Below are positions 5,803 through 60,079 of a stretch of DNA of 64,000 nt, piece by piece. Numbering within the stretch: the stretch's first letter is position 1; each line of letters opens with the position of its first letter. This DNA comes from Escherichia coli. Lineage in GTDB: Bacteria; Pseudomonadota; Gammaproteobacteria; Enterobacterales; Enterobacteriaceae. The position numbers and the translations under genes are program-made. The notes beneath the pieces are model-generated. The model saw only the letters and a program-made list of their open reading frames with translations, was not told the DNA's origin and did not search any database. The stretch lies in the NCBI RefSeq assembly GCF_024298765.1, contig NZ_CP101211.1, one strand, 5' to 3'.

Positions 5803-5866
5803 GTCAGGATAAACAACAATACCCAGTGCTTCGAGAATCAGTTCTTGCTGCCAGGCTGCAATTTTG
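5803..5866 (-). pseudogene. qnrS1: qnrS1 3' fragment (last 20 codons plus stop)
   Basis: Minus-strand translation KIAAWQQELILEALGIVVYPD* continues the 5' fragment at 8397-8994 across the 8-bp duplication. Confidence 0.85.
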
Positions 5867-6686: not shown

Positions 6687-6754
6687 CGCTTAAAAATAAT
6701 AAAAGCAGACTTGACCTGATAGTTTGGCTGTGAGCAATTATGTGCTTAGTGCAT

Positions 6755-7576: not shown

Positions 7577-8396
7577 GGCACTGTTGCAAATAGTCGGTGG
7601 TGATAAACTTATCATCCCCTTTTGCTGATGGAGCTGCACATGAACCCATTCAAAGGCCGGCATTTTCAGCGTGACATCATTCTGTGGGCCGTACGCTGGT
7701 ACTGCAAATACGGCATCAGTTACCGTGAGCTGCAGGAGATGCTGGCTGAACGCGGAGTGAATGTCGATCACTCCACGATTTACCGCTGGGTTCAGCGTTA
7801 TGCGCCTGAAATGGAAAAACGGCTGCGCTGGTACTGGCGTAACCCTTCCGATCTTTGCCCGTGGCACATGGATGAAACCTACGTGAAGGTCAATGGCCGC
7901 TGGGCGTATCTGTACCGGGCCGTCGACAGCCGGGGCCGCACTGTCGATTTTTATCTCTCCTCCCGTCGTAACAGCAAAGCTGCATACCGGTTTCTGGGTA
8001 AAATCCTCAACAACGTGAAGAAGTGGCAGATCCCGCGATTCATCAACACGGATAAAGCGCCCGCCTATGGTCGCGCGCTTGCTCTGCTCAAACGCGAAGG
8101 CCGGTGCCCGTCTGACGTTGAACACCGACAGATTAAGTACCGGAACAACGTGATTGAATGCGATCATGGCAAACTGAAACGGATAATCGGCGCCACGCTG
8201 GGATTTAAATCCATGAAGACGGCTTACGCCACCATCAAAGGTATTGAGGTGATGCGTGCACTACGCAAAGGCCAGGCCTCAGCATTTTATTATGGTGATC
8301 CCCTGGGCGAAATGCGCCTGGTAAGCAGAGTTTTTGAAATGTAAGGCCTTTGAATAAGACAAAAGGCTGCCTCATCGCTAACTTTGCAACAGTGCC
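7577..8396 (+). mobile_element. IS26 (820 bp, complete)
   Basis: 14-bp terminal repeats at 7577 and 8383-8396. Confidence 0.95.
7622..8344 (+). CDS. tnpA: IS26 transposase
   Basis: Identical translation to the other IS26 tnpA copies. Confidence 0.95.
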   Translation: MLMELHMNPFKGRHFQRDIILWAVRWYCKYGISYRELQEMLAERGVNVDHSTIYRWVQRYAPEMEKRLRWYWRNPSDLCPWHMDETYVKVNGRWAYLYRAVDSRGRTVDFYLSSRRNSKAAYRFLGKILNNVKKWQIPRFINTDKAPAYGRALALLKREGRCPSDVEHRQIKYRNNVIECDHGKLKRIIGATLGFKSMKTAYATIKGIEVMRALRKGQASAFYYGDPLGEMRLVSRVFEM

Positions 8397-8994
8397 CAAT
8401 TTTGATACCTGATGTATCGACTTTGCGGGGATCTAAACCGTCGAGTTCGGCGTGGCATAAATTGGCACCCTGTAGGCTAAATTGCCCCCAGACATCTTCG
8501 GAAAAAACACCTCGACTTAAGTCTGACTCTTTCAGTGATGCACCCGCTAGGTTCGTTCCTATCCAGCGATTTTCAAACAACTCACATTTTTCTAAACAAA
8601 CCCTCTCCATATTGGCATAGGAAAGATTACATCCAGAAATAAATGCTGAGCAAAAGTACATACGATTACTCACTTGATGGGCAAAGTTTGTTCGGGAAAA
8701 GTTGGCACCTTTTAAATCACACGCACGGAACTCTATACCGTAGCAATTGGCATTACTGAAGTTTGCCATCGCAAGTTGGCATTGTTGGAAACTTGCATCA
8801 CGAAGATCTGCGACATCAAAGTGGCAGCCTTCGATATCACCCTGTTCAATGAACTTGCAGTTGACGAATGTCGTATCACGCAAGTTAGCACGTCGAAAGT
8901 CGCTGCGAATGAATGTGCAAGCGGTGAAGGTGAGATCACTTAAGTCTTTATGTGAAAAGTTGTGGTGCCGATATGTATGATTGTAGGTTTCCAT
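8397..8994 (-). pseudogene. qnrS1: qnrS1 5' fragment (first about 199 codons), interrupted
   Basis: METYNHTYRHHNFSHKDLSDLTFTACTFIRSDF... pentapeptide-repeat protein matching QnrS1; the supplied ORF tail is read-through into the IS26 repeat. Confidence 0.9.
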
Positions 8995-17483: not shown

Positions 17484-18303
17484 GGCACTGTTGCAAAGTT
17501 AGCGATGAGGCAGCCTTTTGTCTTATTCAAAGGCCTTACATTTCAAAAACTCTGCTTACCAGGCGCATTTCGCCCAGGGGATCACCATAATAAAATGCTG
17601 AGGCCTGGCCTTTGCGTAGTGCACGCATCACCTCAATACCTTTGATGGTGGCGTAAGCCGTCTTCATGGATTTAAATCCCAGCGTGGCGCCGATTATCCG
17701 TTTCAGTTTGCCATGATCGCATTCAATCACGTTGTTCCGGTACTTAATCTGTCGGTGTTCAACGTCAGACGGGCACCGGCCTTCGCGTTTGAGCAGAGCA
17801 AGCGCGCGACCATAGGCGGGCGCTTTATCCGTGTTGATGAATCGCGGGATCTGCCACTTCTTCACGTTGTTGAGGATTTTACCCAGAAACCGGTATGCAG
17901 CTTTGCTGTTACGACGGGAGGAGAGATAAAAATCGACAGTGCGGCCCCGGCTGTCGACGGCCCGGTACAGATACGCCCAGCGGCCATTGACCTTCACGTA
18001 GGTTTCATCCATGTGCCACGGGCAAAGATCGGAAGGGTTACGCCAGTACCAGCGCAGCCGTTTTTCCATTTCAGGCGCATAACGCTGAACCCAGCGGTAA
18101 ATCGTGGAGTGATCGACATTCACTCCGCGTTCAGCCAGCATCTCCTGCAGCTCACGGTAACTGATGCCGTATTTGCAGTACCAGCGTACGGCCCACAGAA
18201 TGATGTCACGCTGAAAATGCCGGCCTTTGAATGGGTTCATGTGCAGCTCCATCAGCAAAAGGGGATGATAAGTTTATCACCACCGACTATTTGCAACAGT
18301 GCC
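17484..18303 (-). mobile_element. IS26 (820 bp, complete)
   Basis: 14-bp terminal repeats at both ends. Confidence 0.95.
17536..18258 (-). CDS. tnpA: IS26 transposase
   Basis: Identical translation to the other IS26 tnpA copies. Confidence 0.95.
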   Translation of the reverse strand: MLMELHMNPFKGRHFQRDIILWAVRWYCKYGISYRELQEMLAERGVNVDHSTIYRWVQRYAPEMEKRLRWYWRNPSDLCPWHMDETYVKVNGRWAYLYRAVDSRGRTVDFYLSSRRNSKAAYRFLGKILNNVKKWQIPRFINTDKAPAYGRALALLKREGRCPSDVEHRQIKYRNNVIECDHGKLKRIIGATLGFKSMKTAYATIKGIEVMRALRKGQASAFYYGDPLGEMRLVSRVFEM

Positions 18304-18596
18304 AGAGCGAGGCCCATTGACGCCACAACGTAGGCGAGGCCACCTCCCAGTAGAACGGGGCGGCGCCCCAGTCGGTCCGATAGCGGTCCAAACAAGAGCT
18401 GACCGGCACCAATCATGACCAAGTACGTTGTCAGCGTAAGCTGAATTGTGCTCGCTGTCGTACCAAGCGCGTTTGGCATAAACGGCACTGCTGGCAAGTA
18501 CATGTCCATGCCGAGTGATGCCAATAAATCGAACGGTGATAACAACAACACCGTGGCGGCAAGGGAGTACCGCCAACTAAAGTTTTTTGAGCGCAC
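18304..18596 (-). pseudogene. cmlA: cmlA chloramphenicol exporter gene, only the first about 97 codons (GTG start), cut by IS26
   Basis: VRSKNFSWRYSLAATVLLLSPFDLLASLGMDMYLPAVPFMPNALG... matches the CmlA N-terminus. Confidence 0.8.
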
Positions 18597-39825: not shown

Positions 39826-40010
39826 GAGGGTAGCGATGGAAGTGAGGCTAAACTCGCTGTTACTGTTTCTGAAGGCCCCTCCCGAATGGGGGAAACAGCG
39901 AGTGCATTACATCTGTTCAATTCCCTCATCAAAGAGCATTCAAAAATCTTCTGTTCGTGAAAAAAAACGGAAATTTCCTCCGGTATAGTAATTTCACATC
40001 AGGAGGCGTC

Positions 40011-40496
40011 ATGAGTAATTCGAATCTTATAAGTTCTATAGAGCTAACACGTAAAAATTTACGTGCTCAGATTGAAGGTTTGCGTGTTGAGGCTGAAGAT
40101 CTCATTACAAAATACTGGATCAAGTGGAAGGAACGAAACCACCAAGAGATTAACCTTACCCGACATAGCAAAGTTCCAAAGAGGGAGTATCTGGGTTCTT
40201 ACGCACCAAAAGTTGAGCTAATTGGTAATGCCAGAAAAGTAACGATCACTTGGCATCAGTTCAGCCCTTATAAAACAAGAGCGCCTAGTCACATGTCAAA
40301 ACGGGTGCAACCAATGAAAAGTGGAAAATATTCTAAGAACTGTTTTGTAAACCATGCCAGCTGGGAATACGAAATGATTTCTGAAACGGAAGCATTGCTG
40401 GAGCCTTACAGAGAAATGCTTGAGCTCTATCATTCAGCATATATCGAACTTGGACGAAAAATCCGTCAATACTCAAAAACTAAGGTGGCACAATGA
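40011..40496 (+). CDS. Hypothetical protein, first gene of the relaxase operon (possible relaxosome accessory factor)
   Basis: AGGAGG ribosome-binding site before the ATG at 40011; the supplied ORF starts earlier at 39957. Confidence 0.45.
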   Translation: MSNSNLISSIELTRKNLRAQIEGLRVEAEDLITKYWIKWKERNHQEINLTRHSKVPKREYLGSYAPKVELIGNARKVTITWHQFSPYKTRAPSHMSKRVQPMKSGKYSKNCFVNHASWEYEMISETEALLEPYREMLELYHSAYIELGRKIRQYSKTKVAQ

Positions 40497-41230
40497 CCGA
40501 CGCAATTATCACGGACAATGAGCGTATTAACATTGAACCAAAAGATGTAATGGTAAAAGGTTCAAATAAAAAGCAAGGCGTAAACGCTCAAACTTCTACT
40601 CAACGTAGACCAGAGCACCAGGGTATGGCCAAAGTTATTATTAACCCCGGCACCCCAGATTTTAACCGGTTTTTAACTGCCAGAAATGGAGCAGTCATCA
40701 GAGGTTTTGATGATGTGAGTATCGCTATTTCCTCTCTCTTTAAAACGGTTGATGCAGTTAAACATCCTGACCTTGTTCAGGCTATTCAGGATTGGTTCAA
40801 CGAGCTGCATGAAGAAAACAATAAGATGAAAGAAAATCTTGTTGCTTATATTAAGTCAATTGAGTTCGACAAGAATGACTCATTCATGTCATCAACTCAG
40901 TTTGTACCTTTCAGTTTTGAACCAGTACAACTCAACTTCAATAACCACAACACCATGAGGTTTTACAAGTACATCTTCGAGATGAACCAGCTCATGAACA
41001 CAATGTATGAGTACAACTCATTGGGTTTACTGGCTGTAAGCGACTATCCGGTTATGTCTCACAACATTATAAAGAGTATTAATTTATATGTTGAGAATGT
41101 GAAAAAGACTCTGAATGTTTCTCGCCGTAAGGATGGGCCATACAGTCCAGCAGAGTTCATCACCAAAGTAATGCAATATAAAAGTGTGCAGGCATACATT
41201 GCAGCCGAACTGTCAGGCAAACGTCGATAA
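40493..41230 (+). CDS. Hypothetical protein (possible relaxosome component)
   Basis: 245-aa ORF translationally coupled to neighbours. Confidence 0.45.
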   Translation: MTDAIITDNERINIEPKDVMVKGSNKKQGVNAQTSTQRRPEHQGMAKVIINPGTPDFNRFLTARNGAVIRGFDDVSIAISSLFKTVDAVKHPDLVQAIQDWFNELHEENNKMKENLVAYIKSIEFDKNDSFMSSTQFVPFSFEPVQLNFNNHNTMRFYKYIFEMNQLMNTMYEYNSLGLLAVSDYPVMSHNIIKSINLYVENVKKTLNVSRRKDGPYSPAEFITKVMQYKSVQAYIAAELSGKRR

Positions 41231-41233
41231 GGT

Positions 41234-44200
41234 ATGATGATGAATTTCAGGGCGCTGTATTTATGTATTAAACGGATTTTGGGGATATTCTCATCTCAGG
41301 AGAATGATGCAACCTCTGTAATGATTGAGGATATATCAAGCCTCTCTCCTTTTGCGCAGATTCTAGGAGATCAGAAGTACACTGTTCCTGATCATCCAAA
41401 TCCAGAAGTCCTGAAATTCATCGAGTATCCAACTCGTCCGACGGGCATACAGACATTTAATGAACAGTCAATCCTGTCTCTGTATCGGGAAAAGCTGCAC
41501 TCAATTTCAATGATGTTAGCTATCAGCGATAGCGACATCAGGGACGATGCATATACATTTACTAATTTAGTATTAAAGCCCTTGGTTGAATATGTTCGCT
41601 GGATACATCTTTTGCCAGCTTCCGAAAATCATCATCATAATGGTATTGGTGGGTTACTTTCTCACAGCCTGGAAGTGGCCATACTCTCTTTAAAAAATGC
41701 GCATCACTCAGAACTGAGACCAATCGGATATCAAGATGAAGAAGTAGTCCGTAGAAAAGTATATCTCTATGCTGCGTTTATCTGTGGTTTAGTCCATGAT
41801 GCCGGAAAGGTTTACGATCTCGATATTGTAAGCCTGAATTTAGCTAGTCCGATCATTTGGACGCCAAGCTCACAAAGTCTTCTTGACTGGGCACGTGAAA
41901 ATGACGTGGTTGAATACGAAATCCACTGGCGAAAGCGTATTCATAATCAACATAATATCTGGTCCAGCGTTTTCCTTGAGCGAATCCTAAACCCGGTATG
42001 TCTTGCATTTTTGGATCGGGTAAATAAAGAACGTGTTTATTCAAAAATGATCACCGCCCTAAACGTTTATACTGATGGGAATGACTTTTTGTCTAAATGC
42101 GTGAGGACCGCTGATTTCTATTCTACTGGTACAGACCTTAATGTTTTACGTGACCCTATCATGGGTCTGCGTTCTAATGATGCAGCAGCAAGGGCCATTA
42201 GTACCATCAAGCACAACTTTACCAGTATCAATATCAACAATTACAATGCTAAGCCTATGCACATCATTATCGTAAATGGTGAGGTATACCTTAACGAGAA
42301 CGCATTCCTTGATTTTGTTCTCAATGATTTCGAATTACATAAATATAACTTCCCTCAGGGAGAGGCTGGTAAGATGGTATTGGTAGAATCCCTAGTTCAA
42401 CGTGGTTACGTCGAGCCCTATGATGATGAGCGTGTCGTTCACTACTTCATTCCGGGTATCTATTCGGAAAACGAAATATCAAACATCTTTAGAAATGGGA
42501 TAGGGAAACTAGAATTCTATAACCTTCTTAAGCTAAGGTGGATTGGTTTAATCTTTGATTCCTATAAAATCCCTGACTCAGTGCCGGGTCTTTTTAGCGT
42601 TAATGCCAATAAAGACTTTATTTACATTGACGAGCAAAAAACAGTTACTGAATACAGAAGACCAGTGCCCGGTCGGGACGCTATAACTAAAATTACTGAT
42701 ACTGTTGAGACGGCTGTTCTTAAGGTTAATGATTTAGGCCGCTCCACTGCCTCTATTGATGTTGATATACATTCTAAGAAAAATGAAGGCTCATCCGACG
42801 ATTTTGAGAAGAAAGCCGAAAGTGATAATGAAATTGATAATGACACGCAGATAGTTAAATCTGAGGGTGAGGAAGCAGCTGATCCTGTCATTCCTGATAT
42901 AGAAGAAAGTGAAGATGAATCGGCAAAGGACACGGAATCCCATGTCCTGGTCAACCAACTTCATGAACTCCTTTTAAGCGCTCCACTTTCCAATGACTAT
43001 ATAGTGTGTGTAGATGCTGTCCCCTACCTCAACATAGATGCCACTATGGCATTGCTGCCGGGATTAGATGAAAAAGCATTTAGTGAAGAGCCCTATTTCC
43101 AACTGACATTCAGAGAAGGCTCTCTCGATGGAATGTGGATAGTAAGGGACATTGACGATCTGCGTTTAGTCCAGCTCGGCGATAACTGCGCCGGGTTCCA
43201 GCTCACCTATCATGAGCCAAGAAGGCCAACAACTTTAAAGTCACTTTTCAATACTTCTATGTATCAGGCATTAGTGATTAATGATGAGTCTTCTGTTGAA
43301 AACTCTGCCCCACGTCCAAAGCAAACGCTTGAGCTGCCTCCCCCACGTGTAAATGCAGTCGAAGAACATTCTGGCGACGTGGAATATCATGGAACCGATA
43401 GTGCATCCGCGACTGGTCCGCTGAAAACTGAGGCTGTGGAATATGAACATTATCAACATCTTTTTGAGGAAGAAGATGAAGAGCATGAGATCATTGATTA
43501 TACCGATTTCACACAGCTTAGTGTTTCTCGGCCAGAAGTCGGTAGTTGTGCAACAAGCTCTTCGGTCCATAATGAAAAGCTTCTCCCCGAGCCGTCAGAA
43601 TTACCAGAACTTAACCGAGAACAGAACGCTGATCCCCAGGGTACGATTGAACGCTCTATGGATGTTTCTGTAGGACAAGAAAACTCAGAACCAGATACTG
43701 AGGGTAACTGCCCACCACCAGCTGAAGTTGTGTATTCCCAGACCGAAGCAGCCGCAACCAGTGTGATGGCAAGTGAAGAGCCCGCCTTACCTCCTGTACT
43801 TGAAGAATCAAATGGAGAGCATGCGCCCACAGACGCTAAGGGGCATCATCTTTCGCCAGCACTGGCCAGACTGTTCGCCCCAACAGCACCGGTAGAAAAA
43901 CAAAATCCCAAGCGCAACCGGAATAAATCATCGGACAAAGCAGAAGTACAAAAACCAGCATCACCTGTTTCTGGTCACAATCTGAACAGTAAAGTCTTTG
44001 CAACTACTGAATCAGACCAAAATGGTGAATTCTCGCTTATAAGCGAAGGTGACGTTACAGAGCTTGAATTTGTAGAAATTGCGTCAGTACTGCATCAAAT
44101 TCTGTCCAAAATGGAGGTGGCGTTTAAAAGAAAGCGCAAAAACAGATTTATGGTAAGTACTCCTAATACTCTCTATCTGACCCAATCTTGCGTGGAAAAA

Positions 44201-44386
44201 TTTGGGTCGCAGTTAGAGGCTCAAGATCTTTTCAATAAGCTTCCTCAGTACCTCGTTAATTCTGGTGCTGTGATCAATACAAAATGCCATGCATTTAACA
44301 TGCCTACTTTGCTGGCCGCATCAGACCGGGCGAAAGTGGACATTGAACGAATTATCAATAACCTGAAAGAGGCTGGGAACCTATAA
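41234..44386 (+). CDS. traI: MOBH-family conjugative relaxase TraI (HD-hydrolase domain)
   Basis: HHHNGIGGLLSHSLEVA...VHDAGKV is the HD-domain signature of MOBH relaxases; 1050 aa with an acidic C-terminal region. Confidence 0.7.
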   Translation: MMMNFRALYLCIKRILGIFSSQENDATSVMIEDISSLSPFAQILGDQKYTVPDHPNPEVLKFIEYPTRPTGIQTFNEQSILSLYREKLHSISMMLAISDSDIRDDAYTFTNLVLKPLVEYVRWIHLLPASENHHHNGIGGLLSHSLEVAILSLKNAHHSELRPIGYQDEEVVRRKVYLYAAFICGLVHDAGKVYDLDIVSLNLASPIIWTPSSQSLLDWARENDVVEYEIHWRKRIHNQHNIWSSVFLERILNPVCLAFLDRVNKERVYSKMITALNVYTDGNDFLSKCVRTADFYSTGTDLNVLRDPIMGLRSNDAAARAISTIKHNFTSININNYNAKPMHIIIVNGEVYLNENAFLDFVLNDFELHKYNFPQGEAGKMVLVESLVQRGYVEPYDDERVVHYFIPGIYSENEISNIFRNGIGKLEFYNLLKLRWIGLIFDSYKIPDSVPGLFSVNANKDFIYIDEQKTVTEYRRPVPGRDAITKITDTVETAVLKVNDLGRSTASIDVDIHSKKNEGSSDDFEKKAESDNEIDNDTQIVKSEGEEAADPVIPDIEESEDESAKDTESHVLVNQLHELLLSAPLSNDYIVCVDAVPYLNIDATMALLPGLDEKAFSEEPYFQLTFREGSLDGMWIVRDIDDLRLVQLGDNCAGFQLTYHEPRRPTTLKSLFNTSMYQALVINDESSVENSAPRPKQTLELPPPRVNAVEEHSGDVEYHGTDSASATGPLKTEAVEYEHYQHLFEEEDEEHEIIDYTDFTQLSVSRPEVGSCATSSSVHNEKLLPEPSELPELNREQNADPQGTIERSMDVSVGQENSEPDTEGNCPPPAEVVYSQTEAAATSVMASEEPALPPVLEESNGEHAPTDAKGHHLSPALARLFAPTAPVEKQNPKRNRNKSSDKAEVQKPASPVSGHNLNSKVFATTESDQNGEFSLISEGDVTELEFVEIASVLHQILSKMEVAFKRKRKNRFMVSTPNTLYLTQSCVEKFGSQLEAQDLFNKLPQYLVNSGAVINTKCHAFNMPTLLAASDRAKVDIERIINNLKEAGNL

Positions 44387-46470
44387 TGTCAGATTCGAAG
44401 AGGACTAACCTCCATGCACAAGAGAATTTTTATCGGCCTATTCTTGAGTATCGTAGTGCCTCAATACTTTTGATTTGTTCGGTTTCTATGCTTTATATGG
44501 GACTTTCTTCAGACGGACTGGACATCGCCCCAATAGTTCTGTTCACCTCAATATTGCTTTTTTTGCTGTGCCTTTATCGTTGCAAAACAGCAGCGCCATT
44601 CTTGATGGCTCATTGGCGTGTATTCAAGCGACATTTCATGTTCGTTAGTCTTGATTCACTGCGTGTAATTAACAAAAGTAACTTTTTCTCCAATGAGCGA
44701 AAGTATCGTCAACTGGTTCAGGATTATCAAAATAAAAATAAGGATATACCCGAGCGAAAGTCCTATTTTTGTGATGGGTTTGAGTGGGGCCCGGAACATG
44801 CGGATCGGGCATATCAAATAGCTAACCTCTCCAGTGATAAACGTGAGATCGAGTTGCCATTCGTCTTCAACCCAATTAAGAGACATTTTGACGCAATGGC
44901 TCGTAAGATGGGCGGCAGCAATGCAATTTTTGCTGTGGAACGTAGGGAACCCATATTTGTAACTGAAGACAATTGGTTTGGTCATACTCTGATAACCGGA
45001 AACGTGGGTACCGGGAAAACGGTGCTACAGCGTTTACTAAGCATTAGCATGCTTCATCTTGGTCATGTTGTTGTTGTCATAGATCCAAAGAACGATGCAG
45101 AGTGGCGAGAATCTCTAATGGAAGAGGCTAAGACCCTCGGTCTTCCTTTCTATAAATTTCATCCTGGCCAGCCAGCATCTTCGGTCTGTATTGATGTCTG
45201 CAACACCTATACTAATGTTTCTGACCTAACATCTCGTCTTTTGAGCTTGGTGACAGTTCCCGGTGAGGTTAACCCATTCGTTCAGTATGCCAAAGCTCTC
45301 GTTTCCAATGTGATTTCCGGGCTTTCTTACATAGAGAAAAAGCCTTCTATTTATCTGATTCACAAGAACATGAAAAGCCACATGTCTATTGTGAATCTTA
45401 CAGTCAAGGTAATGGAGTCATGTTACGCGAGATATTATGGTTACGATGTCTGGACCGAAAAAGTTAAGTACGTCGCTAACGAAACCTTGCCGGTACGTTT
45501 CAAGCGTCTCGCTGAATGGTTTACGGCTCATTTCATGAATTACGAGGGGTCCGAACAAATAGACTGGTTAGATACTGTTTCCCAGCTTATTGATTACTCA
45601 ATGTCCGACCCAGAGCATATGGCTAAAATGACCGCAGGTATTATGCCTGTTTTCGATATGCTCATTGAAAAACCTTTAAATGAGCTTTTATCTCCTAACC
45701 CGAACTCAGTATCATCAAGAGAAATTGTAACAAGCGAAGGGATGTTCAGCACTGGCGGGGTGCTATACATTTCGCTTGATGGCCTTTCAAACCCCGATAC
45801 AGCAGCTGCTATTTCTCAATTAATAATGTCAGATCTGACCTCCTGTGCCGGTAGTCGCTACAACGCTCAGGATGGTGATATGTCAGCTAATTCCAGGATA
45901 AGTATTTTTGTTGATGAGGCACACTCAGCCATTAACAACCCTATGATTAACCTTCTGGCGCAGGGTCGTGCAGCGAAAATTGCACTGTTTATTTGCACCC
46001 AAACCATCTCCGACTTTATTGCTGCGGCAAGTGTTGAAACTGCCAATCGAATTACGGGGCTCTGCAACAATTATATAAGCTTGCGAGTCAACGATACTCC
46101 TACTCAGACGCTTGTTGTAGAGAACTTTGGTAAGAGTGCGATAAGCACAAATATGGTCACTTATACGACCGGTTCAGAAACATCTTTGCCGCATAATAAC
46201 TTCTCAGGTTCAATCTCAGAAAGAAAGCAGACAACTTTAGAAGAGAGTATTCCAAAGGATCTCTTGGGTCAGGTCCCTATGTTTCACATAGTTGCCAGGC
46301 TTCAAGATGGCAGGAAGGTTGTAGGCCAAATCCCTATTGCTGTTGCTGAGAAACAAATGAAGCCAAACACAACTCTGTCGGAAATGCTTTTCAAGAAGGC
46401 CGGAAAAGTTACTTTGCGTCAAAATCTCGATATCAAAAATCTTAATAAATTTCTAAGGAAGTTGCATTGA
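44386..46470 (+). CDS. traG: Type IV coupling protein (TraG of H-type plasmids; TraD/VirD4 family)
   Basis: N-terminal transmembrane helices and Walker A GNVGTGKT; 694 aa. Confidence 0.75.
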   Translation: MSDSKRTNLHAQENFYRPILEYRSASILLICSVSMLYMGLSSDGLDIAPIVLFTSILLFLLCLYRCKTAAPFLMAHWRVFKRHFMFVSLDSLRVINKSNFFSNERKYRQLVQDYQNKNKDIPERKSYFCDGFEWGPEHADRAYQIANLSSDKREIELPFVFNPIKRHFDAMARKMGGSNAIFAVERREPIFVTEDNWFGHTLITGNVGTGKTVLQRLLSISMLHLGHVVVVIDPKNDAEWRESLMEEAKTLGLPFYKFHPGQPASSVCIDVCNTYTNVSDLTSRLLSLVTVPGEVNPFVQYAKALVSNVISGLSYIEKKPSIYLIHKNMKSHMSIVNLTVKVMESCYARYYGYDVWTEKVKYVANETLPVRFKRLAEWFTAHFMNYEGSEQIDWLDTVSQLIDYSMSDPEHMAKMTAGIMPVFDMLIEKPLNELLSPNPNSVSSREIVTSEGMFSTGGVLYISLDGLSNPDTAAAISQLIMSDLTSCAGSRYNAQDGDMSANSRISIFVDEAHSAINNPMINLLAQGRAAKIALFICTQTISDFIAAASVETANRITGLCNNYISLRVNDTPTQTLVVENFGKSAISTNMVTYTTGSETSLPHNNFSGSISERKQTTLEESIPKDLLGQVPMFHIVARLQDGRKVVGQIPIAVAEKQMKPNTTLSEMLFKKAGKVTLRQNLDIKNLNKFLRKLH
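44675..44687. repeat. Backbone palindrome copy AAAAGTAACTTTT, inside the coupling-protein gene
   Basis: Exact copy in coding sequence. Confidence 0.75.
46405..46416. repeat. Backbone palindrome copy (12 of 13)
   Basis: AAAAGTTACTTT about 50 bp before the next gene start. Confidence 0.7.
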
Positions 46471-47579
46471 TGGATGAAAAAATTGTCCTGACGCGCCAGC
46501 AAATTTTAAGCTCTGCACTAAAAGTCAGCAAATGTCGCTCGCTCGTAAAAAGGCGCTTTCAGTCTTTGGGTTTAAAGTACGCAGATTCTCAGGAAGTTCG
46601 AGATCGGCTAACTAAGATAGAAAAAAACGCGTTTCATCATTTGGGAAAATTTTGTCAGAGCAACGATATCGATTCCCTATTCTCCATGGCAAATACCCTG
46701 TCTGAGCTTTTCCTTTTAAAGGGAGAGTTGATCACGACTGATCCCTTTGGGGACCGTGAAACCAGCTACTGGTCGGTACCACAAGGTTCATGCCATGAAT
46801 GGATTCAATCGCTGACCACCAGCGAAGGTCCTGAACGTAAATTCGTTAGTTTCCGTATTTCTTTCGATAACAATGACGAACGGTGTGATCTTGTAAAGAA
46901 GAATGCCCGTATGCTTGGTTGTTATCTTTTGCCTTATTTCGTCGATTTGACACGCACGGTGGGCGCATTCATTAATTTGCCAGGTAGTGTCTCTTTTAAA
47001 CAAGTACAGCGCATCAAACCCCAGATTCATCCAGAAACAACACATAGTCATATAGTTACTATTGAGGACTCTCCCTTTCTTTCTCGGTTAAAATTTAAAA
47101 TCATTACTGCCATAGATCGGCTTCCTGACCCTAATGGCCTTTATACAAACACCTTTAACAGCATTATTGACCGTGCACTGCTGACTCATCTCAAAACCGA
47201 ACAGGAAAAAATAGATAGTCCAAGAGTCTGCAAAAATGTGATTTCGGCTTTTGCCGACTCAACTCTTTCTCTGCCGGTGTTTAACATCGGCCTAAACGAG
47301 CAGTACAGATACTGGACGCCGTGGGGCATCAACTTTATAGAATTTTCCCGCCAGGCCGCAAAAGCAAGGACCGCTGTATTTGTTCCTGATGTGGGACAGA
47401 TCGAGTGGAAAAGCGCAGAGCATAAAGAACTGGCGGAGTTAAGCCTCATCGACCAAATCATACCTAAACAGTACCACTGGCTCCTGGGTATCCCGACGAT
47501 GTGGCGTAACAACTATTGCAATCACGATCAGAGGCTAGCTCTTTTTCGTGAATGGAGGGAAAGCAATGGCTGCGGATAA
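46467..47579 (+). CDS. Hypothetical protein
   Basis: 370-aa ORF overlapping the coupling-protein stop. Confidence 0.45.
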   Translation: MMDEKIVLTRQQILSSALKVSKCRSLVKRRFQSLGLKYADSQEVRDRLTKIEKNAFHHLGKFCQSNDIDSLFSMANTLSELFLLKGELITTDPFGDRETSYWSVPQGSCHEWIQSLTTSEGPERKFVSFRISFDNNDERCDLVKKNARMLGCYLLPYFVDLTRTVGAFINLPGSVSFKQVQRIKPQIHPETTHSHIVTIEDSPFLSRLKFKIITAIDRLPDPNGLYTNTFNSIIDRALLTHLKTEQEKIDSPRVCKNVISAFADSTLSLPVFNIGLNEQYRYWTPWGINFIEFSRQAAKARTAVFVPDVGQIEWKSAEHKELAELSLIDQIIPKQYHWLLGIPTMWRNNYCNHDQRLALFREWRESNGCG

Positions 47580-48228
47580 TACAAGCAGAGCAGCAGTGCT
47601 CAGAACAATGCTTTTTTTTGGCATGGTCATTTATTTTGGTTACAGCCTGGCTTTCCAGAATACTGAGGAGCTCAAATATCAGATTACTCAGGAGGTTAAT
47701 GCAAGCCGGTCCATCATATCAAATGACCGTTGGAAGTCTGTTATTGCAAATAGTGAAGCGACTTTAAATTGGTTGGTACATGACTATAAGTTAATTGACT
47801 ATCTGAATACTATTCTGATCCCTGACACCAAAAAACCAGCCAGAGGTATTAACATTGTTGCTGAAAAATTTACCTCTATTAATTACACTATGGCCAAAAA
47901 CATACCCCTCTTACTTTATCAGTCCATTTTCCGGTGGAACTTAATCCTGGGGTGGCTAATCGTTTTTCTGCCCTATCTATTTGCCATGCTAGCAGATGGA
48001 ATGTACCAGTGGAAATTGAAGAGGTACGTATTTGGTAAGGTTACAGTTCAGTTTTATCGTATTTGGTTTCGAGCATTTTGGGTGATCAGTGCTTTAACGA
48101 TGGTCTACCTGGTCATGCCGAATATGTCACTATTTAACAATATCGCTCAACTTTTCCCACCAGTCGCTTTATTGATACTGGGAATTGCATTGAATCGCTT
48201 GTGGTCTAACTTTCAAAAACTCATGTAA
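47548..48228 (+). CDS. Polytopic membrane protein (possible TraJ-like partner of the coupling protein)
   Basis: Several hydrophobic helices; 226 aa. Confidence 0.45.
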   Translation: MNGGKAMAADNTSRAAVLRTMLFFGMVIYFGYSLAFQNTEELKYQITQEVNASRSIISNDRWKSVIANSEATLNWLVHDYKLIDYLNTILIPDTKKPARGINIVAEKFTSINYTMAKNIPLLLYQSIFRWNLILGWLIVFLPYLFAMLADGMYQWKLKRYVFGKVTVQFYRIWFRAFWVISALTMVYLVMPNMSLFNNIAQLFPPVALLILGIALNRLWSNFQKLM

Positions 48229-48238
48229 AGGTGGTCAG

Positions 48239-49420
48239 ATGTTAAGCAGTAAAAAAAGGAAGTCCCCTACAAATATCAAAGAATCGCTCAATGATAACGC
48301 TGACCGTTTTTATAAGATGTTTCGCATTCATACCACGGCAAAAGTTGCTATGTCGCTAATTGCCATGACCGCTGTAGGGTTTTCTTTCTACAATCTTTAC
48401 GAACAATGGCAGGACGCTGAAGGGAAGAAAGACCATATAGCTGTAATACGGATTTCTGGCGAGATGGGTACCGGCTCGGAAACGGGCGATGGAACAGTGA
48501 TCGCAACAGCTCTTGCCAAAGCTTACAATAATCCCCATGCCAAAGCAGTTATTATCGAGGCAGAGTCAGGTGGTGGTGGTCCCTCTGACGCCATCATTAT
48601 TTACCGCCAGATAAACGCGCTTAAAAACCACCAGCCACAGATTGAACGCGTATCAGATGCCGGTTGCTCTCTTTCATCTGTAGCCGCTGACAAGAGTAAC
48701 AAAACCGGGAGCACAGAACGTGGCGATGAAGCACGGTCGAAGCAAAACTCCCTCGAAGTACTCTCCAGCGGTACCGGTCGTTTTTTCTCTGATATCGCAG
48801 ACTCATATAAACCAATCATCGTTAGTGTGAAAGGCATATGCGCATCCGCATGCTATTACGCGGTATCGCCCGCTGATGCAATTTATGCCGACAGTAATGC
48901 CCTGATCGGTTCTATCGGTGTGCGTATGGACCACTGGAATCTGTCAGAGATCATGAGCACAGTAGGCGTCAAGAATGAGCCCCTTACGGCCGGTGAGTTC
49001 AAAGATGCTCTTGACCCCTTCCACCCATTGTCCGATTCAACGAGGGAGTTCATGCAGAAGGAGATCCTGAACACGATGCATGAAAAATTTATAACTGATG
49101 TTGAACTTGGACGGGGTAAAAAGCTTCTCTCGCGTCATGATGCCGATGCTGTTTCTCTCTATTCAGGCCGTGTATGGCCAACACCTCAGGCAGTTAAGTA
49201 CGGCCTGGTGGATGGAGATCTTACGTCAGTAGAGATCCGTACACGTCTTTCAAAAATGTACTCCACTGACACGTTCAAAAACTACAATGAGCCTCATCGT
49301 AATCTCCGTTCTGCACTCGGCATGCTGATGAGCCTGTCTTCAAATATTGAGAGCCTTACCGGTACCACTACCCGCTTGGTAGAATCTGTTAATGCCACCA
49401 GCTACCCCTCTGTGAGGTAA
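48239..49420 (+). CDS. S49-family (SppA-like) serine peptidase
   Basis: HIAVIRISGEMGTGSE and GICASACYY in the positions of the SppA motifs; N-terminal membrane anchor. Confidence 0.6.
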   Translation: MLSSKKRKSPTNIKESLNDNADRFYKMFRIHTTAKVAMSLIAMTAVGFSFYNLYEQWQDAEGKKDHIAVIRISGEMGTGSETGDGTVIATALAKAYNNPHAKAVIIEAESGGGGPSDAIIIYRQINALKNHQPQIERVSDAGCSLSSVAADKSNKTGSTERGDEARSKQNSLEVLSSGTGRFFSDIADSYKPIIVSVKGICASACYYAVSPADAIYADSNALIGSIGVRMDHWNLSEIMSTVGVKNEPLTAGEFKDALDPFHPLSDSTREFMQKEILNTMHEKFITDVELGRGKKLLSRHDADAVSLYSGRVWPTPQAVKYGLVDGDLTSVEIRTRLSKMYSTDTFKNYNEPHRNLRSALGMLMSLSSNIESLTGTTTRLVESVNATSYPSVR

Positions 49421-49421
49421 C

Positions 49422-50153
49422 ATGGATGCTTTCAATCTGCTGTGGAGCATTACGGGGGTAGCTTTCATTATCCTTATTTTCGTCGTGTTGCTGTGTCTGT
49501 TGGGTTTTATGACCTCTGCCATAGCGGAACGGCGGACTGCAAAGGCAATTGAATCTGGGCTTCCTGAAGAAGCTCAGGGGCTACTTAGTGATCTCACCTT
49601 TCAGTTGTCGGCTCATAGCACTACTCAGGTTGATCACATTCTCGTAGCCCCACATGGTATATACGTCATAGAGCAGAAAAACTACGTAGGCAAGCTCTAC
49701 GGTACTCTGGAGGAAAGCCACTGGCGGAAATGGACTCAGTCCCGAACCCTCAAGTTGCAGAACCCGTTTAAGCAAAACCAGGGGCACATCAGGGCTATTC
49801 AGTCTGCTCTTAAGGCTAGAGAACTGGAATGTATCAATGTCGTCATCATAAACGGACGTTGTAAGTTTGATGGCATCAAGCCGGAATGGTTATGTATGGG
49901 GATGGACGATTTTATCCATAAAGTCAAACAACGACGAGGGCTACGGTTGTTCACACCGGAGTCTGTTCAGCACATCTGTTCGGTGTTGAAGTCAACAAGG
50001 AAGTCGCCAGGGCTCTATACGGACCTTACTCATATTCACAACATAACGACAAAGTACAAAGCCCCGATGAAATTCGAGCAACGAGTAACATACATTCTGC
50101 TCAACTTTATCCATTATCTGTGGGCAAGTCTGTTCACTAAGCAGAAGCCTTAG
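49422..50153 (+). CDS. NERD-domain protein (nuclease-related domain) with an N-terminal transmembrane helix
   Basis: DHILVAPHGIYVIEQKNYVGKLYG...W matches the NERD core; translationally coupled to the peptidase gene. Confidence 0.65.
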   Translation: MDAFNLLWSITGVAFIILIFVVLLCLLGFMTSAIAERRTAKAIESGLPEEAQGLLSDLTFQLSAHSTTQVDHILVAPHGIYVIEQKNYVGKLYGTLEESHWRKWTQSRTLKLQNPFKQNQGHIRAIQSALKARELECINVVIINGRCKFDGIKPEWLCMGMDDFIHKVKQRRGLRLFTPESVQHICSVLKSTRKSPGLYTDLTHIHNITTKYKAPMKFEQRVTYILLNFIHYLWASLFTKQKP

Positions 50154-50189
50154 CGCTCTATCATTGGTAAGGCTGTAAAATGTCTGCAA

Positions 50190-50224
50190 AAGGCCCCATC
50201 GGTAAATTGTTGGGGCTTTTTCTT
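50190..50224 (+). terminator. Rho-independent terminator after the NERD gene
   Basis: GCCCCA / TGGGGC stem followed by TTTTTCTTT. Confidence 0.55.
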
Positions 50225-50439
50225 TGCGTAGTTCTGATACGGTTTATCCTGTGGAGCATTATGGCCACCAGCCAGCTGGTGACTGGCCAACGCTTTGTAT
50301 GACGTAGCCTACTCAGGGCAGGCTATTTTAGAGGGACCGATTTTTATCCGGGCTAATTTAGAAAGAGATAATTTGAACTTAGGCGGGCTGACCACCAGCA
50401 GAGAGGTAAATCACTAGCCGGTGATATTGACAGAAGTCG

Positions 50440-51499: not shown

Positions 51500-51802
51500 T
51501 CAGTCACCACCACCACCTCCTCCTCCTCCTCCTCCACCGCCACCATCACAACCACCAGCTATGCTATTTTCACCATTACAATCACCTCCGAGGGGGTTCA
51601 AATGGCTGCTCCCCTGTAGATGGTGTCCTTGCCAGATCGAACCCGAACCAGCGCCTCCTGAGCGTCTTTGCTTGCCCTGAGGCAATTGTGCAGGCTCACC
51701 AGCACCGGCGGTCCCAAAAATGTCCCGGGCAATTTTATAAAGAAGGTAAAAAGGTACGCCCAGCATCATAAAAAAGATTACTGAAAATATTACACGTTCC
51801 AT
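51500..51802 (-). CDS. Small membrane-anchored protein with a Gly-rich C-terminal tail
   Basis: AGGAG ribosome-binding site 7 nt before the ATG; N-terminal transmembrane helix; the tail is encoded by the CCN repeat. Confidence 0.45.
   Translation of the reverse strand: MERVIFSVIFFMMLGVPFYLLYKIARDIFGTAGAGEPAQLPQGKQRRSGGAGSGSIWQGHHLQGSSHLNPLGGDCNGENSIAGGCDGGGGGGGGGGGGGD
51507..51545 (+). repeat. Trinucleotide (CCN)13 simple sequence repeat
   Basis: caccaccaccacctcctcctcctcctcctccaccgccacc. Confidence 0.8.
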
Positions 51803-60060: not shown

Positions 60061-60079
60061 GAGGGGGGTTGCCCCCCTC
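60061..60079 (-). terminator. Hairpin directly after the hok stop codon
   Basis: GAGGGGGG-tt-gCCCCCCTC with T-rich flank on the minus strand. Confidence 0.55.

What the first reader, a model, noticed from the sequence alone, without database searches (positions are those of the whole stretch)
48239..50224. S49 peptidase and membrane-anchored NERD nuclease-domain protein coupled at the end of the relaxase operon
The last two genes of the operon are separated by 1 bp and followed by a terminator. NERD domains are predicted nucleases often found in defence or stress contexts, and an S49 protease partner is not a standard conjugation component as far as I know. The pair could be an exclusion, abortive-infection or anti-phage module carried along with the transfer operon, or a processing protease plus nuclease that acts on incoming DNA.
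Basis: partly seen in the sequence, partly recalled or inferred. Interest (0 to 1): 0.65.

Follow-up and report, generated by a model that had tools for sequence, protein, structure and literature searches.

The report
Plasmid SppA-like protease plus NERD nuclease
The last two genes of this IncHI2 resistance plasmid's DNA-transfer operon really do encode a membrane-anchored SppA-type serine protease and a membrane-anchored NERD nuclease. They are two separately acquired, already annotated accessory genes of untested function, not a coupled defence module.

Summary
Window 48239-49420 encodes a 393-aa S49 peptidase (Pfam E=6e-28) and 49422-50153 a 243-aa NERD protein (E=2e-21). They are 1 bp apart and followed by a hairpin terminator. 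The window is an IncHI2 plasmid: 974 PLSDB plasmids match at >=95% identity. The two genes are the orthologues of R27 R0116 and R0115, the end of the Tra1 'H' operon, and are de-repressed with traI/traG/traJ in drR27.

The protease has an invariant Ser203/Lys255 dyad and a B. subtilis SppA fold. The nuclease has an invariant D71/E84/K86 motif, a PD-(D/E)xK fold and a strong N-terminal membrane helix.

The 'pair' reading fails. The S49 gene directly follows dtrJ/traJ in every MobI-TraI-TraD-DtrJ operon examined, and seven of these from distant lineages (Motilimonas, Vibrio, Neiella, metagenomes) have no NERD. There it often precedes the traA pilin gene. These S49s form one clade. NERD follows S49 only in IncHI-like plasmids, is missing in a Photorhabdus relative, and occurs alone on other plasmids. 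No S49 locus outside an IncHI-like transfer operon had a NERD neighbour. PADLOC finds no system.

Best reading: a plasmid-borne envelope protease plus a later single-gene nuclease add-on. Functions are inferred, not shown. Interest is low to moderate.

The parts
48239..49420 (+). S49 (SppA-type, single-domain '36K-like') serine protease gene, orthologue of R27 R0116
   Evidence: PF01343 E=5.8e-28. TIGR00706 SppA_dom E=4e-35, 121 bits, below the curated cut-off of 155. Foldseek best match is B. subtilis SppA 3rst/4kwb, E~2e-17, TMt 0.83-0.87. 72% aa identity to the R27 orthologue.
48344..48400 (+). Codons for the weakly hydrophobic N-terminal helix of S49 (residues 36-54), the putative signal-anchor
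   Evidence: Best 19-residue hydropathy 1.39. Nine K/R in residues 1-35 and an acidic stretch after the helix, so N-in/C-out is inferred. The AF2 model shows one long helix, 13-61.
48629..48799 (+). Variable, low-confidence insert in S49 (residues ~131-187), present only in the IncHI-like relatives
   Evidence: Alignment A1 columns ~150-218 are gaps in most non-IncHI homologues; the two Motilimonas sequences carry a shorter insert there. pLDDT 37-48.
48845..48847 (+). Codon of catalytic Ser203
   Evidence: Invariant in 22 sequences. Lies in the AS motif that aligns with the 'AASGGYY' segment of B. subtilis SppA; that this Ser is catalytic S147 is from my own knowledge. Checked.
49001..49003 (+). 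Codon of catalytic Lys255
   Evidence: Invariant in 22 sequences. Aligns with the Ala in 'SGAHADIMSP' of 3rst/4kwb; that this is the K199A position of the crystallised mutant is from my own knowledge.
49422..50153 (+). Membrane-anchored NERD (PD-(D/E)xK) nuclease-domain gene, orthologue of R27 R0115
49455..49511 (+). Codons for the NERD protein's transmembrane helix (residues 12-30)
   Evidence: Hydropathy 3.1. No K/R before it and ERRTAK after it, so N-out/C-in is inferred and the nuclease is cytoplasmic.
49632..49679 (+). Codons spanning the NERD catalytic motif D71 ... E84-x-K86
   Evidence: D71, E84 and K86 are invariant in 19 sequences, including solitary NERDs from other plasmids. Checked.
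50188..50225 (+). Intrinsic-terminator-like hairpin plus T-run closing the operon
   Evidence: -18.6 kcal/mol, z=-3.24, 1 of 200 shuffles as stable. Sequence.
47548..48228 (+). traJ/dtrJ (DUF4400/DtrJ-like polytopic membrane protein), the invariant upstream neighbour of the S49 gene
   Evidence: Annotated DUF4400. Several hydrophobic segments. DtrJ-S49 adjacency in L002, L004, L008, L009, L010, L012, L013, L022-L027, L029, L031, L035 and L106.
39957..47579 (+). Upstream part of the same operon: mobI, orf245, traI (MobH relaxase), traG/traD (coupling protein), orf370
   Evidence: ORFs. Annotation of an essentially identical plasmid (window 33500-60076 matches it at 99.985%). Same order in R27.

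Best explanation
These are two independent accessory genes at the 3' end of the IncHI Tra1 'H' (DNA-transfer) operon. They are not a two-part system.

(1) The S49 gene encodes an active SppA-type Ser/Lys protease. It is tethered to the inner membrane by an N-terminal signal-anchor, with its protease domain in the periplasm. It was inherited together with the MOBH relaxase operon: it always follows dtrJ/traJ, and where the Dtr and Mpf operons are contiguous it sits just before the traA pilin gene. I propose that it works as a plasmid-borne signal-peptide and membrane-peptide clearing or quality-control protease. This would support the heavy Sec-dependent export of pilin and type IV secretion components in transfer-competent cells. 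It would be largely redundant with host SppA/SohB and therefore dispensable in E. coli or Salmonella.

(2) The NERD gene is a later addition restricted to the IncHI-like clade. It encodes a single-pass membrane-tethered cytoplasmic PD-(D/E)xK nuclease of a very common architecture. I think it most likely acts alone, cutting foreign nucleic acid at the inner membrane of piliated donors (pilus-dependent phage genomes or incoming DNA). Roughly 0.3 of my belief goes to that specific role.

Shown: identity, domains, conserved catalytic residues, folds, synteny, decoupled phylogenetic distribution, and co-regulation with tra genes in R27. Inferred: topology, substrates and physiological roles.
For: - Plasmid identity: IncHI2, 974 PLSDB records at >=95% identity. 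Same gene order and 1-bp spacer in R27.
- Active-site conservation: Ser203/Lys255 and D71/E84/K86.
- Folds: SppA and PD-(D/E)xK.
- Synteny: MobI-x-TraI-TraD-(x)-DtrJ-S49 without NERD in L002, L004, L008, L009, L013, L027, L029, L031 and L035. S49 is followed by TraA pilin (NF041281, E 3e-9 to 7e-13; own TraA HMM 4e-36 in L031) in L004, L008, L009 and L031; in the first three TraL/E/K/B follow.
- Phylogeny: the 15 DtrJ-linked S49s plus one other plasmid copy form a single NJ clade that excludes 69 S49s without a transfer operon and the IncC copy.
- NERD distribution: it follows S49 only in IncHI-like loci (L010, L012, L022-L025, L106, R27) and is absent in L026.
- Solitary NERDs occur elsewhere. 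4734 representative relatives exist, the best mostly 200-270 aa and matching residues ~10-212.
- Purifying selection between IncHI1 and IncHI2: dN is 0.19 for S49 and 0.29 for NERD, against 0.25 for TraI and 0.11 for TraG, with dS saturated for all but MobI and TraJ.
- Regulation in R27: R0116 rises 4.7-fold and R0115 5.6-fold in de-repressed drR27 at 25 C, alongside traJ 7.3-fold and traI 11-fold, and not at 37 C (PMC7366339 Table S4).
- Dispensable for plasmid maintenance: IS5 sits inside S49 in pE92-1 and ISApl1 inside NERD in pSA186_MCR1.
- Other plasmid copies of host periplasmic functions lie nearby: DsbA, thioredoxin-fold and lytic transglycosylase genes on IncHI, and S49 next to DsbA on IncC. 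Host redundancy of plasmid Dsb proteins is described in PMC10838148.
- Defence precedents for NERD: weak hits to the NERD domains of PglW, MkoA and MAD6, and ZwsA, a NERD RNA endonuclease active against ssRNA phages (bioRxiv 10.64898/2026.04.06.716636). IncH pili are receptors for the ssRNA phages Hgal1 and pilHalpha (PMC3561173).
Against: - No experiment on either protein was found in the literature I could reach.
- The S49 membrane helix is only weakly hydrophobic (1.39), and the topology is inferred from charge bias alone.
- S49 scores below the curated SppA cut-off (121 vs 155 bits), so it is not an SppA equivalog.
- Strict retention next to dtrJ over long divergence, at a dN lower than that of the relaxase, fits a dedicated role better than mere redundancy.
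- H-pilin C-terminal cleavage and cyclisation are attributed by the authors to a TraF-type peptidase, not to S49.
- For the NERD guard idea: R27-bearing cells are, to my recollection, the propagation host of Hgal1, so the nuclease does not block that phage. The ZwsA precedent is a much larger multidomain protein.
Confidence: 0.55

Rival explanations
1. One reading: S49 and NERD form one functional two-component module for exclusion, abortive infection or anti-phage defence. For example, the protease would sense or activate and the nuclease would execute, with the module hitch-hiking on the transfer operon.
For: - 1-bp spacing with the same arrangement in IncHI1, IncHI2 and IncHI-like Klebsiella plasmids.
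- Both are membrane-anchored.
- Both are retained in essentially all IncHI1/HI2 plasmids: 268 records each in the 60-80% identity band and ~955-966 at >=99%.
- NERD domains occur in known defence proteins.
Against: - S49 occurs without NERD in nine MOBH-operon loci from seven distant lineages and in L026. NERD occurs without S49 on other plasmids.
- No NERD lies within the fetched flanks (up to 7 kb) of ~70 other S49 loci.
- No PADLOC system hit for S49, TraJ or orf370.
- The predicted catalytic domains lie on opposite sides of the membrane.
- Tight spacing is a property of the whole operon.
Confidence: 0.08
2. S49 is a dedicated conjugation protease rather than a redundant housekeeping one. 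It would process or control the turnover of a specific transfer protein, for instance its invariant neighbour DtrJ/TraJ (by analogy with the SppA-SppI membrane complex of B. subtilis), the coupling protein, or the pre-pilin.
For: - Invariant DtrJ-S49 adjacency and a monophyletic DtrJ-linked clade.
- Position between dtrJ and traA in four lineages.
- A conserved cytoplasmic N-terminal 'RFY' motif and a conserved C-terminal P-x-x-[R/K/Y] tail within the clade.
- dN lower than that of the relaxase.
- SppA is known to form a regulated complex with a co-encoded membrane protein (PMC7568657, abstract).
Against: - MOBH12 elements use DtrJ without an adjacent S49: Rts1 traJ, and in IncC the S49 sits elsewhere, next to DsbA.
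- R0116 never received a tra name. To my recollection it was not among the nine transfer-essential Tra1 ORFs of R27; that paper is not held.
- A natural IS5 knock-out exists on a plasmid that is otherwise typed as conjugative.
Confidence: 0.2
3. The NERD protein is a DNA-transfer accessory nuclease. Tethered beside the coupling protein, it would process the transferred strand or resolve intermediates, rather than protect.
For: - It is the last gene of the relaxase operon and is co-induced with traI/traG/traJ.
- The catalytic motif is intact.
- Structural neighbours include Hjc-type resolvases and NucS.
- Membrane tethering would place it near the T4SS.
Against: - It is absent from seven distant MOBH lineages and from L026, all of which keep the rest of the Dtr operon.
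- Solitary relatives lie in non-transfer contexts.
- It has the highest dN of the operon.
Confidence: 0.12
4. The S49 gene is a remnant of a phage head-maturation protease (S49 family, lambda gpC type) captured by the plasmid.
For: phrog_53 'head maturation protease' E=5.4e-33, which is comparable to the SppA HMM score.
Against: - No capsid, portal or terminase genes nearby.
- It has an N-terminal membrane helix.
- The best structural matches are SppA (E~1e-17), well ahead of ClpP-type proteases.
- Its closest non-plasmid relatives are single-domain S49 genes without transfer genes nearby, presumably chromosomal SppA, in Thiotrichales, Chromatiales and Neisseriales.
Confidence: 0.02

Closest known systems
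Signal peptide peptidase A, single-domain '36K' type (B. subtilis SppA, PDB 3RST/4KWB; MEROPS S49)
   Same: Pfam S49 domain, Ser/Lys dyad at the aligned positions, same fold (TMt 0.83-0.87), N-terminal membrane helix, and a C-terminal tail that could be self-processed as in 4KWB.
   Different: Plasmid-encoded inside a relaxase operon. It has a ~35-residue basic N-terminal cytoplasmic extension and, in IncHI, a ~55-residue disordered insert. It scores below the NCBIfam SppA cut-off. The substrate is unknown.
R27 (IncHI1) R0116 and R0115, terminal genes of the Tra1 H operon
   Same: Direct orthologues (72% and 63% aa identity) with the same order and 1-bp spacer. R0116 is listed as '(H), peptidase' and R0115 as '(H)' in the R27 expression tables.
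   Different: None of substance. The window is the IncHI2 version.
IncC/IncA plasmid S49 family peptidase (for example on pKKp4-VIM)
   Same: An S49 peptidase on a MOBH/MPF_F conjugative plasmid, adjacent to another periplasmic biogenesis gene (DsbA).
   Different: Only 26% identity, outside the DtrJ-linked clade, and located near repA, far from traI/traD/dtrJ.
Stand-alone membrane-anchored NERD proteins (Pfam PF08378; for example the B. anthracis plasmid copies hit)
   Same: Same architecture (N-terminal TM helix, NERD core, helical C-terminal region), same D...ExK motif, often plasmid-borne.
   Different: This lineage is fixed as the last gene of the IncHI relaxase operon and carries an extra ~30-residue hydrophobic C-terminal helix.
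NERD-containing defence proteins: BREX PglW, Mokosh MkoA, MADS MAD6, ZwsA
   Same: They share the NERD nuclease domain. ZwsA's NERD residues are required for defence, and the protein cleaves ssRNA-phage genomes in vitro.
   Different: Those are large multidomain proteins (600-1600 aa in the profiles matched) with kinase, helicase or RNA-binding domains and partner genes. Only their NERD domain matches, far below the family cut-offs (41 vs 460 bits; 20 vs 990 bits).
B. subtilis SppA-SppI protease-inhibitor membrane complex
   Same: An SppA-type protease co-encoded and co-transcribed with a polytopic membrane protein (here DtrJ upstream).
   Different: SppI lies downstream of sppA and, to my knowledge, is an RDD-family protein. 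DtrJ is DUF4400, and no relationship was tested.

Membership tests
Peptidase family S49 (Pfam PF01343) | Significant match to the family profile | tested here: met
   E=5.8e-28, residues 188-338
Peptidase family S49 / SppA | Catalytic Ser-Lys dyad at the conserved positions | tested here: met
   Ser203 and Lys255 are invariant in 22 homologues and align with the B. subtilis SppA active-site motifs. The S147/K199 numbering is from my own knowledge.
Peptidase family S49 / SppA | SppA protomer fold | tested here: met
   Foldseek 3rst/4kwb E~2e-17, TMt 0.83-0.87; ClpP is far weaker. Model pLDDT 77.
SppA equivalog (NCBIfam TIGR00706/TIGR00705) | Score above the curated whole-protein cut-off | tested here: not met
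   121.2 bits vs cut-off 155.45; 96.1 vs 311.45. It is an S49 family member, not a certified SppA equivalog.
SppA | Membrane anchoring with the protease domain outside the cytoplasm | tested here: inconclusive
   Weak hydrophobic helix at residues 36-54 (KD 1.39) with a strongly basic N-terminal flank. No experimental topology.
SppA | Hydrolysis of remnant signal peptides | not testable with these tools
   Needs biochemistry
NERD (Pfam PF08378) | Significant match to the family profile | tested here: met
   E=1.9e-21, residues 33-142
NERD / PD-(D/E)xK nucleases | D ... (D/E)xK catalytic motif conserved | tested here: met
   D71, E84 and K86 are invariant in 19 sequences
NERD / PD-(D/E)xK nucleases | Restriction-endonuclease-like fold | tested here: met
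NERD / PD-(D/E)xK nucleases | Nuclease activity and substrate (DNA or RNA) | not testable with these tools
   Needs purified protein
Known anti-phage systems (PADLOC-DB: BREX PglW, Mokosh MkoA; NCBIfam MADS MAD6) | Full-length match to a system protein and presence of the partner genes | tested here: not met
   Only the NERD domain matches: PglW 24 bits, MkoA 21 bits, MAD6 41 vs cut-off 460. S49, TraJ and orf370 give no PADLOC hit.
Obligate two-gene S49-NERD module | Co-occurrence of the two genes across lineages and outside conjugation operons | tested here: not met
   S49 without NERD in 9 MOBH-operon loci plus L026 and in ~70 loci without a transfer operon. NERD without S49 on other plasmids.
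Core MOBH11-type Dtr operon (MobI-TraI-TraD-DtrJ) | Conserved syntenic position in related operons (for S49) | tested here: met
   Directly downstream of DtrJ in all 17 MOBH-operon loci fetched whole, plus R27. The 15 entered in the tree form a monophyletic clade.
Essential conjugative transfer (tra) genes | Loss of transfer on mutation | not testable with these tools
   Lawley et al. 2002 is not held. From memory of its abstract, 9 of 14 Tra1 ORFs were essential and all nine received tra/trh names. R0115 and R0116 did not.
Phage head-maturation protease (PHROG 53) | Profile match plus capsid-module context | tested here: not met
   The profile matches (E=5e-33), but there are no phage structural genes nearby and the structure is closest to SppA.

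The most novel reading that the evidence does not exclude
The IncHI-specific NERD protein is a membrane-tethered endonuclease that guards the very entry route the plasmid creates. It would be expressed only with the transfer genes and would sit at the inner membrane below the H-pilus/T4SS. There it would cut the genomes of pilus-dependent phages (ssRNA leviviruses such as Hgal1 and pilHalpha, or ssDNA phages) or competitor plasmid DNA as they enter. The ancient DtrJ-linked S49 protease would separately be a previously unrecognised dedicated component of MOBH11-type conjugation systems.
Probability: 0.12. Interest if true: 0.6.

Novelty: new member of a known kind. Interest (0 to 1): 0.3.

Why it matters
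IncHI1 and IncHI2 plasmids are major carriers of multidrug, mcr and tet(X4) resistance. Both genes sit in the backbone of essentially every sequenced member (more than 1,200 plasmids in PLSDB), yet neither has a tested function.

The useful result here is mostly negative and organising. The pair should not be counted as a defence module. The S49 protease belongs to a conserved, monophyletic, DtrJ-linked lineage that deserves to be tested as an accessory conjugation or envelope factor. This matters especially in hosts lacking SppA/SohB redundancy, which bears on host range.

If the NERD nuclease turned out to protect piliated donors against pilus-dependent phages, that would matter for proposals to use such phages against resistance plasmids.

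Tried and rejected
1. Defence-system classification. PADLOC gave no hit for S49, TraJ or orf370, and only domain-level hits for NERD. Rejected as a known system.
2. Phage origin of S49. phrog_53 matches, but context and structure point to SppA. Rejected.
4. Literature.
   - Lawley 2002 (R27 Tra1 mutagenesis) is not held.
   - Searches for R0115/R0116, IncC plus signal peptide peptidase, S49 plus relaxase plus NERD, and IncHI Tn-seq gave nothing specific.
   - The IncA/C regulon papers do not mention the peptidase.
5. The simple terminator scan missed the hairpin because of its long loop. It was confirmed by folding.
6. A 'CASAC' motif flanking the catalytic Ser looked clade-specific. It is also common (CASGC) in relatives without a transfer operon, so I dropped it.
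7. P0009 and P0025 looked like S49-NERD and DtrJ-S49 fusion proteins. The P0009 sequence reads as a frameshifted read-through of adjacent genes, probably an assembly error; P0025 was not inspected. Not used as evidence.
8. dN/dS between IncHI1 and IncHI2 could not be computed for most genes because dS is saturated. Only dN is reported.
Full report
**What is there.** The window carries a tightly packed + strand operon:

| Gene | Coordinates |
|---|---|
| mobI | 39957-40496 |
| orf245 | 40493-41230 |
| traI, MobH relaxase | 41234-44386 |
| traG/traD, coupling protein | 44386-46470 |
| orf370 | 46467-47579 |
| traJ/dtrJ, DUF4400 | 47548-48228 |
| 393-aa ORF | 48239-49420 |
| 243-aa ORF | 49422-50153 |

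The last two ORFs are separated by a single base (TAA c ATG, with GAGG upstream). A hairpin at 50188-50221 plus a T-run follows them and folds at -18.6 kcal/mol, z=-3.2. The pattern scan missed this hairpin because its rule allows loops of only 3-8 nt. Pfam confirms both domain calls: Peptidase_S49 at E=5.8e-28 and NERD at E=1.9e-21. Overlaps or gaps of 1-10 bases are the rule along the whole operon, so the 1-bp spacer says nothing particular about these two genes.

**Where it comes from.** Window 47500-50500 matches 974 PLSDB plasmids at >=95% identity. Nearly all are 200-340 kb IncHI2 (MOBH, MPF_F) plasmids of E. coli, Salmonella and Enterobacter. RefSeq already annotates the two genes as 'S49 family peptidase' and 'nuclease-related domain-containing protein'. 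The IncHI1 prototype R27 has the same order and the same 1-bp spacer, so these are the orthologues of R27 R0116 and R0115 (72% and 63% aa identity).

In the R27 expression tables of PMC7366339 the two genes are assigned to the 'H' operon, with R0116 labelled 'peptidase'. In the de-repressed drR27 at 25 C they rise with the rest of the operon, and none of them rises at 37 C:

| Gene | Fold change, drR27 vs R27, 25 C |
|---|---|
| traI | 11.0 |
| traG | 9.2 |
| R0118 | 8.6 |
| traJ | 7.3 |
| R0116 | 4.7 |
| R0115 | 5.6 |

They are thus expressed as part of the transfer programme.

**The protease.**
- Ser203 and Lys255 are invariant in a 22-sequence alignment spanning 29-78% identity.
- They align with the active-site motifs of B. 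subtilis SppA. I recall these positions as S147 and K199, the latter mutated to Ala in the crystallised protein.
- An AlphaFold model (pLDDT 77) is closest to B. subtilis SppA (3rst/4kwb, E~2e-17, TMt 0.83-0.87), then E. coli SppA, with ClpP far behind.
- It is a single-domain, '36K-type' S49 protease.
- It scores below NCBI's curated SppA cut-offs (121 vs 155 bits), so I call it SppA-like, not an SppA equivalog.
- The N-terminus has nine K/R in 35 residues, followed by a weakly hydrophobic helix (residues 36-54, hydropathy 1.39) and an acidic stretch. From the positive-inside rule I infer a signal-anchor with the protease domain in the periplasm, as I recall is described for SppA. This is inference.
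- IncHI-like members carry a ~55-residue variable, low-confidence insert at residues ~131-187.

**The nuclease.**
- D71, E84 and K86 are invariant across 19 sequences, including solitary NERD proteins from unrelated plasmids.
- The model is confident (pLDDT 92.7).
- Residues 12-30 form a strongly hydrophobic helix (3.1) with the basic flank on the C-terminal side, so the nuclease domain should be cytoplasmic (inference).
- A search of 1.84 billion representative proteins finds 4734 relatives. The best are mostly 200-270 aa and match residues ~10-212. TM helix plus NERD plus helical tail is therefore a very common architecture.

**Is it a pair?** This is the decisive test, and the answer is no.
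- Distant S49 homologues (29-34% identity) lie immediately after DtrJ in MobI-x-TraI-TraD-(x)-DtrJ-S49 operons, with no NERD gene. These come from Motilimonas, Vibrio gigantis, Vibrio hepatarius, Neiella and three metagenomic plasmids.
- In four of them the next gene is the TraA pilin (NF041281, E 3e-9 to 7e-13; own TraA HMM 4e-36 in L031). In three of these TraL/E/K/B follow.
- A scan of one genome per species returned 80 loci. Nine are MOBH operons and about 70 are S49 genes with no transfer genes nearby. Only the four IncHI-like loci have a NERD gene, and no locus outside a transfer operon has one within the flanks fetched, up to 7 kb.
- A Photorhabdus heterorhabditis plasmid-like contig with a 55%-identical S49 lacks NERD.
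- A neighbour-joining tree places all 15 DtrJ-linked S49s plus one other plasmid copy in one clade. That clade excludes 69 copies without a transfer operon and the IncC copy (no support values).
- Conversely, NERD relatives at >=35% identity are all in DtrJ-S49-NERD context. More distant ones stand alone on Methylophaga, Photobacterium and Thiomicrorhabdus plasmids and elsewhere.
- IncC plasmids carry a 26%-identical S49 gene in a different place, next to a DsbA gene.

The S49 gene is therefore an old, vertically inherited member of this MOBH operon type. The NERD gene was appended later in the IncHI-like branch.

**Selection and dispensability.**
- Between IncHI1 and IncHI2 synonymous sites are saturated for all genes except MobI and TraJ.
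- dN is 0.19 for S49 and 0.29 for NERD, against 0.25 for the relaxase, 0.23 for orf370, 0.14 for TraJ and 0.11 for TraG. Both genes are under purifying selection comparable to bona fide transfer genes.
- Both are present in essentially all IncHI1 and IncHI2 records.
- Rare natural knock-outs exist: IS5 in S49 (pE92-1) and ISApl1 in NERD (pSA186_MCR1). Neither gene is therefore needed for plasmid maintenance.
- From my memory of the abstract of Lawley et al. 2002, only 9 of 14 R27 Tra1 ORFs were transfer-essential and all nine got tra/trh names. R0115, R0116 and R0118 kept their numbers. The paper is not in the library, so this is unverified.
[quoted passage not shown] This shows the field does not count R0116 as a transfer protease.

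**How it most likely works.** For S49 I favour a plasmid-borne SppA-like protease that clears remnant signal or membrane peptides, or does quality control, during the burst of Sec-dependent export of pilin and T4SS parts. Four things fit:
- its fold and active site;
- its place at the Dtr/Mpf junction next to the pilin gene in relatives;
- its induction with the tra genes;
- the habit of these plasmids of carrying their own periplasmic biogenesis factors. DsbA, thioredoxin-fold proteins and a lytic transglycosylase are nearby, and the IncC S49 sits beside DsbA. Plasmid Dsb phenotypes are masked by host enzymes.

Host SppA and SohB would explain the lack of a strong phenotype. The main rival is a dedicated role, for example control of its invariant neighbour DtrJ by analogy with the B. 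subtilis SppA-SppI complex. Cleavage of the five C-terminal residues of the cyclic H-pilin is attributed by its discoverers to a TraF-type peptidase, not to S49.

For NERD the evidence only supports 'active membrane-tethered PD-(D/E)xK nuclease expressed in transfer-competent cells'. I lean to a stand-alone protective role against nucleic acids entering at the envelope. NERD domains head PglW, MkoA and MAD6. A NERD protein, ZwsA, was recently reported to cleave ssRNA-phage genomes. IncH pili are receptors for the ssRNA phages Hgal1 and pilHalpha. Against this, I recall that R27 hosts propagate Hgal1, and ZwsA is a much larger protein. A DNA-processing role is less likely because seven distant lineages with the same Dtr operon do without NERD.

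**Verdict.** Both proteins are members of well-known families, are already annotated in RefSeq, and are listed in the R27 literature. Their functions remain untested. Interest is low to moderate (0.3). The most novel surviving reading is a pilus-entry guard nuclease plus a dedicated MOBH11 protease, at a probability of about 0.12.

Noticed in passing
window 46467-47579 (orf370) and 40493-41230 (orf245): Two further conserved genes of unknown function sit inside the relaxase operon. orf370 is the R27 R0118 equivalent and has no hit in NCBIfam, PADLOC or PHROGs. orf245 hits phrog_20548 at E=3e-105. In distant MOBH operons the slot between TraD and DtrJ holds unrelated-sized ORFs of 190-233 aa, or none.
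   Followed up: partly
window 49340-49417 (S49 C-terminus); alignment A1 columns 400-426: The extreme C-terminus of the DtrJ-linked S49 proteins usually ends in a P-x-x-[R/K/Y]-like tail, with a hydrophobic then basic or aromatic last two residues. In B. subtilis SppA (4KWB) the protein's own C-termini occupy the active sites. This could be a self-processing or autoinhibitory tail.
   Followed up: no
L018, L019, L020, L021 (IncHI2 plasmids pE92-1, p418-mcr, pF2_14D_HI2, pSA186_MCR1): Natural IS insertions occur in this stretch: IS5 in the S49 gene, ISVsa5 and IS1203 in traJ, and ISApl1 in the NERD gene. These plasmids are ready-made natural mutants whose transfer proficiency could be checked.
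   Followed up: partly
R27 expression tables (PMC7366339 Tables S3/S4): De-repression falls steadily along the H operon, from traI 11-fold to R0116 4.7-fold. R0116 has the highest basal signal of the operon in wild-type R27 (~1500 units, against 222-318 for traI). This hints at an internal promoter or a more stable 3' transcript.
   Followed up: no
L008:10186-10518, L004:10120-10461: The pilin genes that follow S49 in distant MOBH plasmids end in ...TAGIPLA and ...SAGFALI. These resemble the AGIPD pentapeptide removed from R27 TrhA during cyclisation. Cyclic pilins may therefore be general in this plasmid group.
   Followed up: no
window 51505-51557: A trinucleotide repeat (period 3, 17.7 copies) lies inside a 100-aa ORF on the - strand (51500-51802). 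It encodes a run of 13 glycines, or prolines on the opposite strand. The ORF is annotated only as hypothetical in the matching plasmid. It may vary in length.
   Followed up: no
window 1-20550: The first ~20 kb is a mosaic resistance region. Four extra ~820-bp copies of the IS26-bearing segment lie at 1419-2200, 5866-6689, 7577-8397 and 17484-18304, together with two segments matching the intI1 gene of the comparison plasmid. From 20553 onward the window is colinear with pSTM6-275, apart from one gap near 60070 where pSTM6-275 has an IS421 transposase gene.
   Followed up: partly
L006:8476-9942: One S49 of the DtrJ-linked clade is not next to DtrJ. It is paired with an OmpA-family gene on a Rep3/TraC plasmid that also encodes a large Big_3-domain protein.
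   Followed up: no
L104:6001-7380: A solitary membrane NERD gene (32% identical to the window protein) lies back-to-back with a gene carrying an AcrVA2-like domain, in a metagenome-assembled genome.
   Followed up: no
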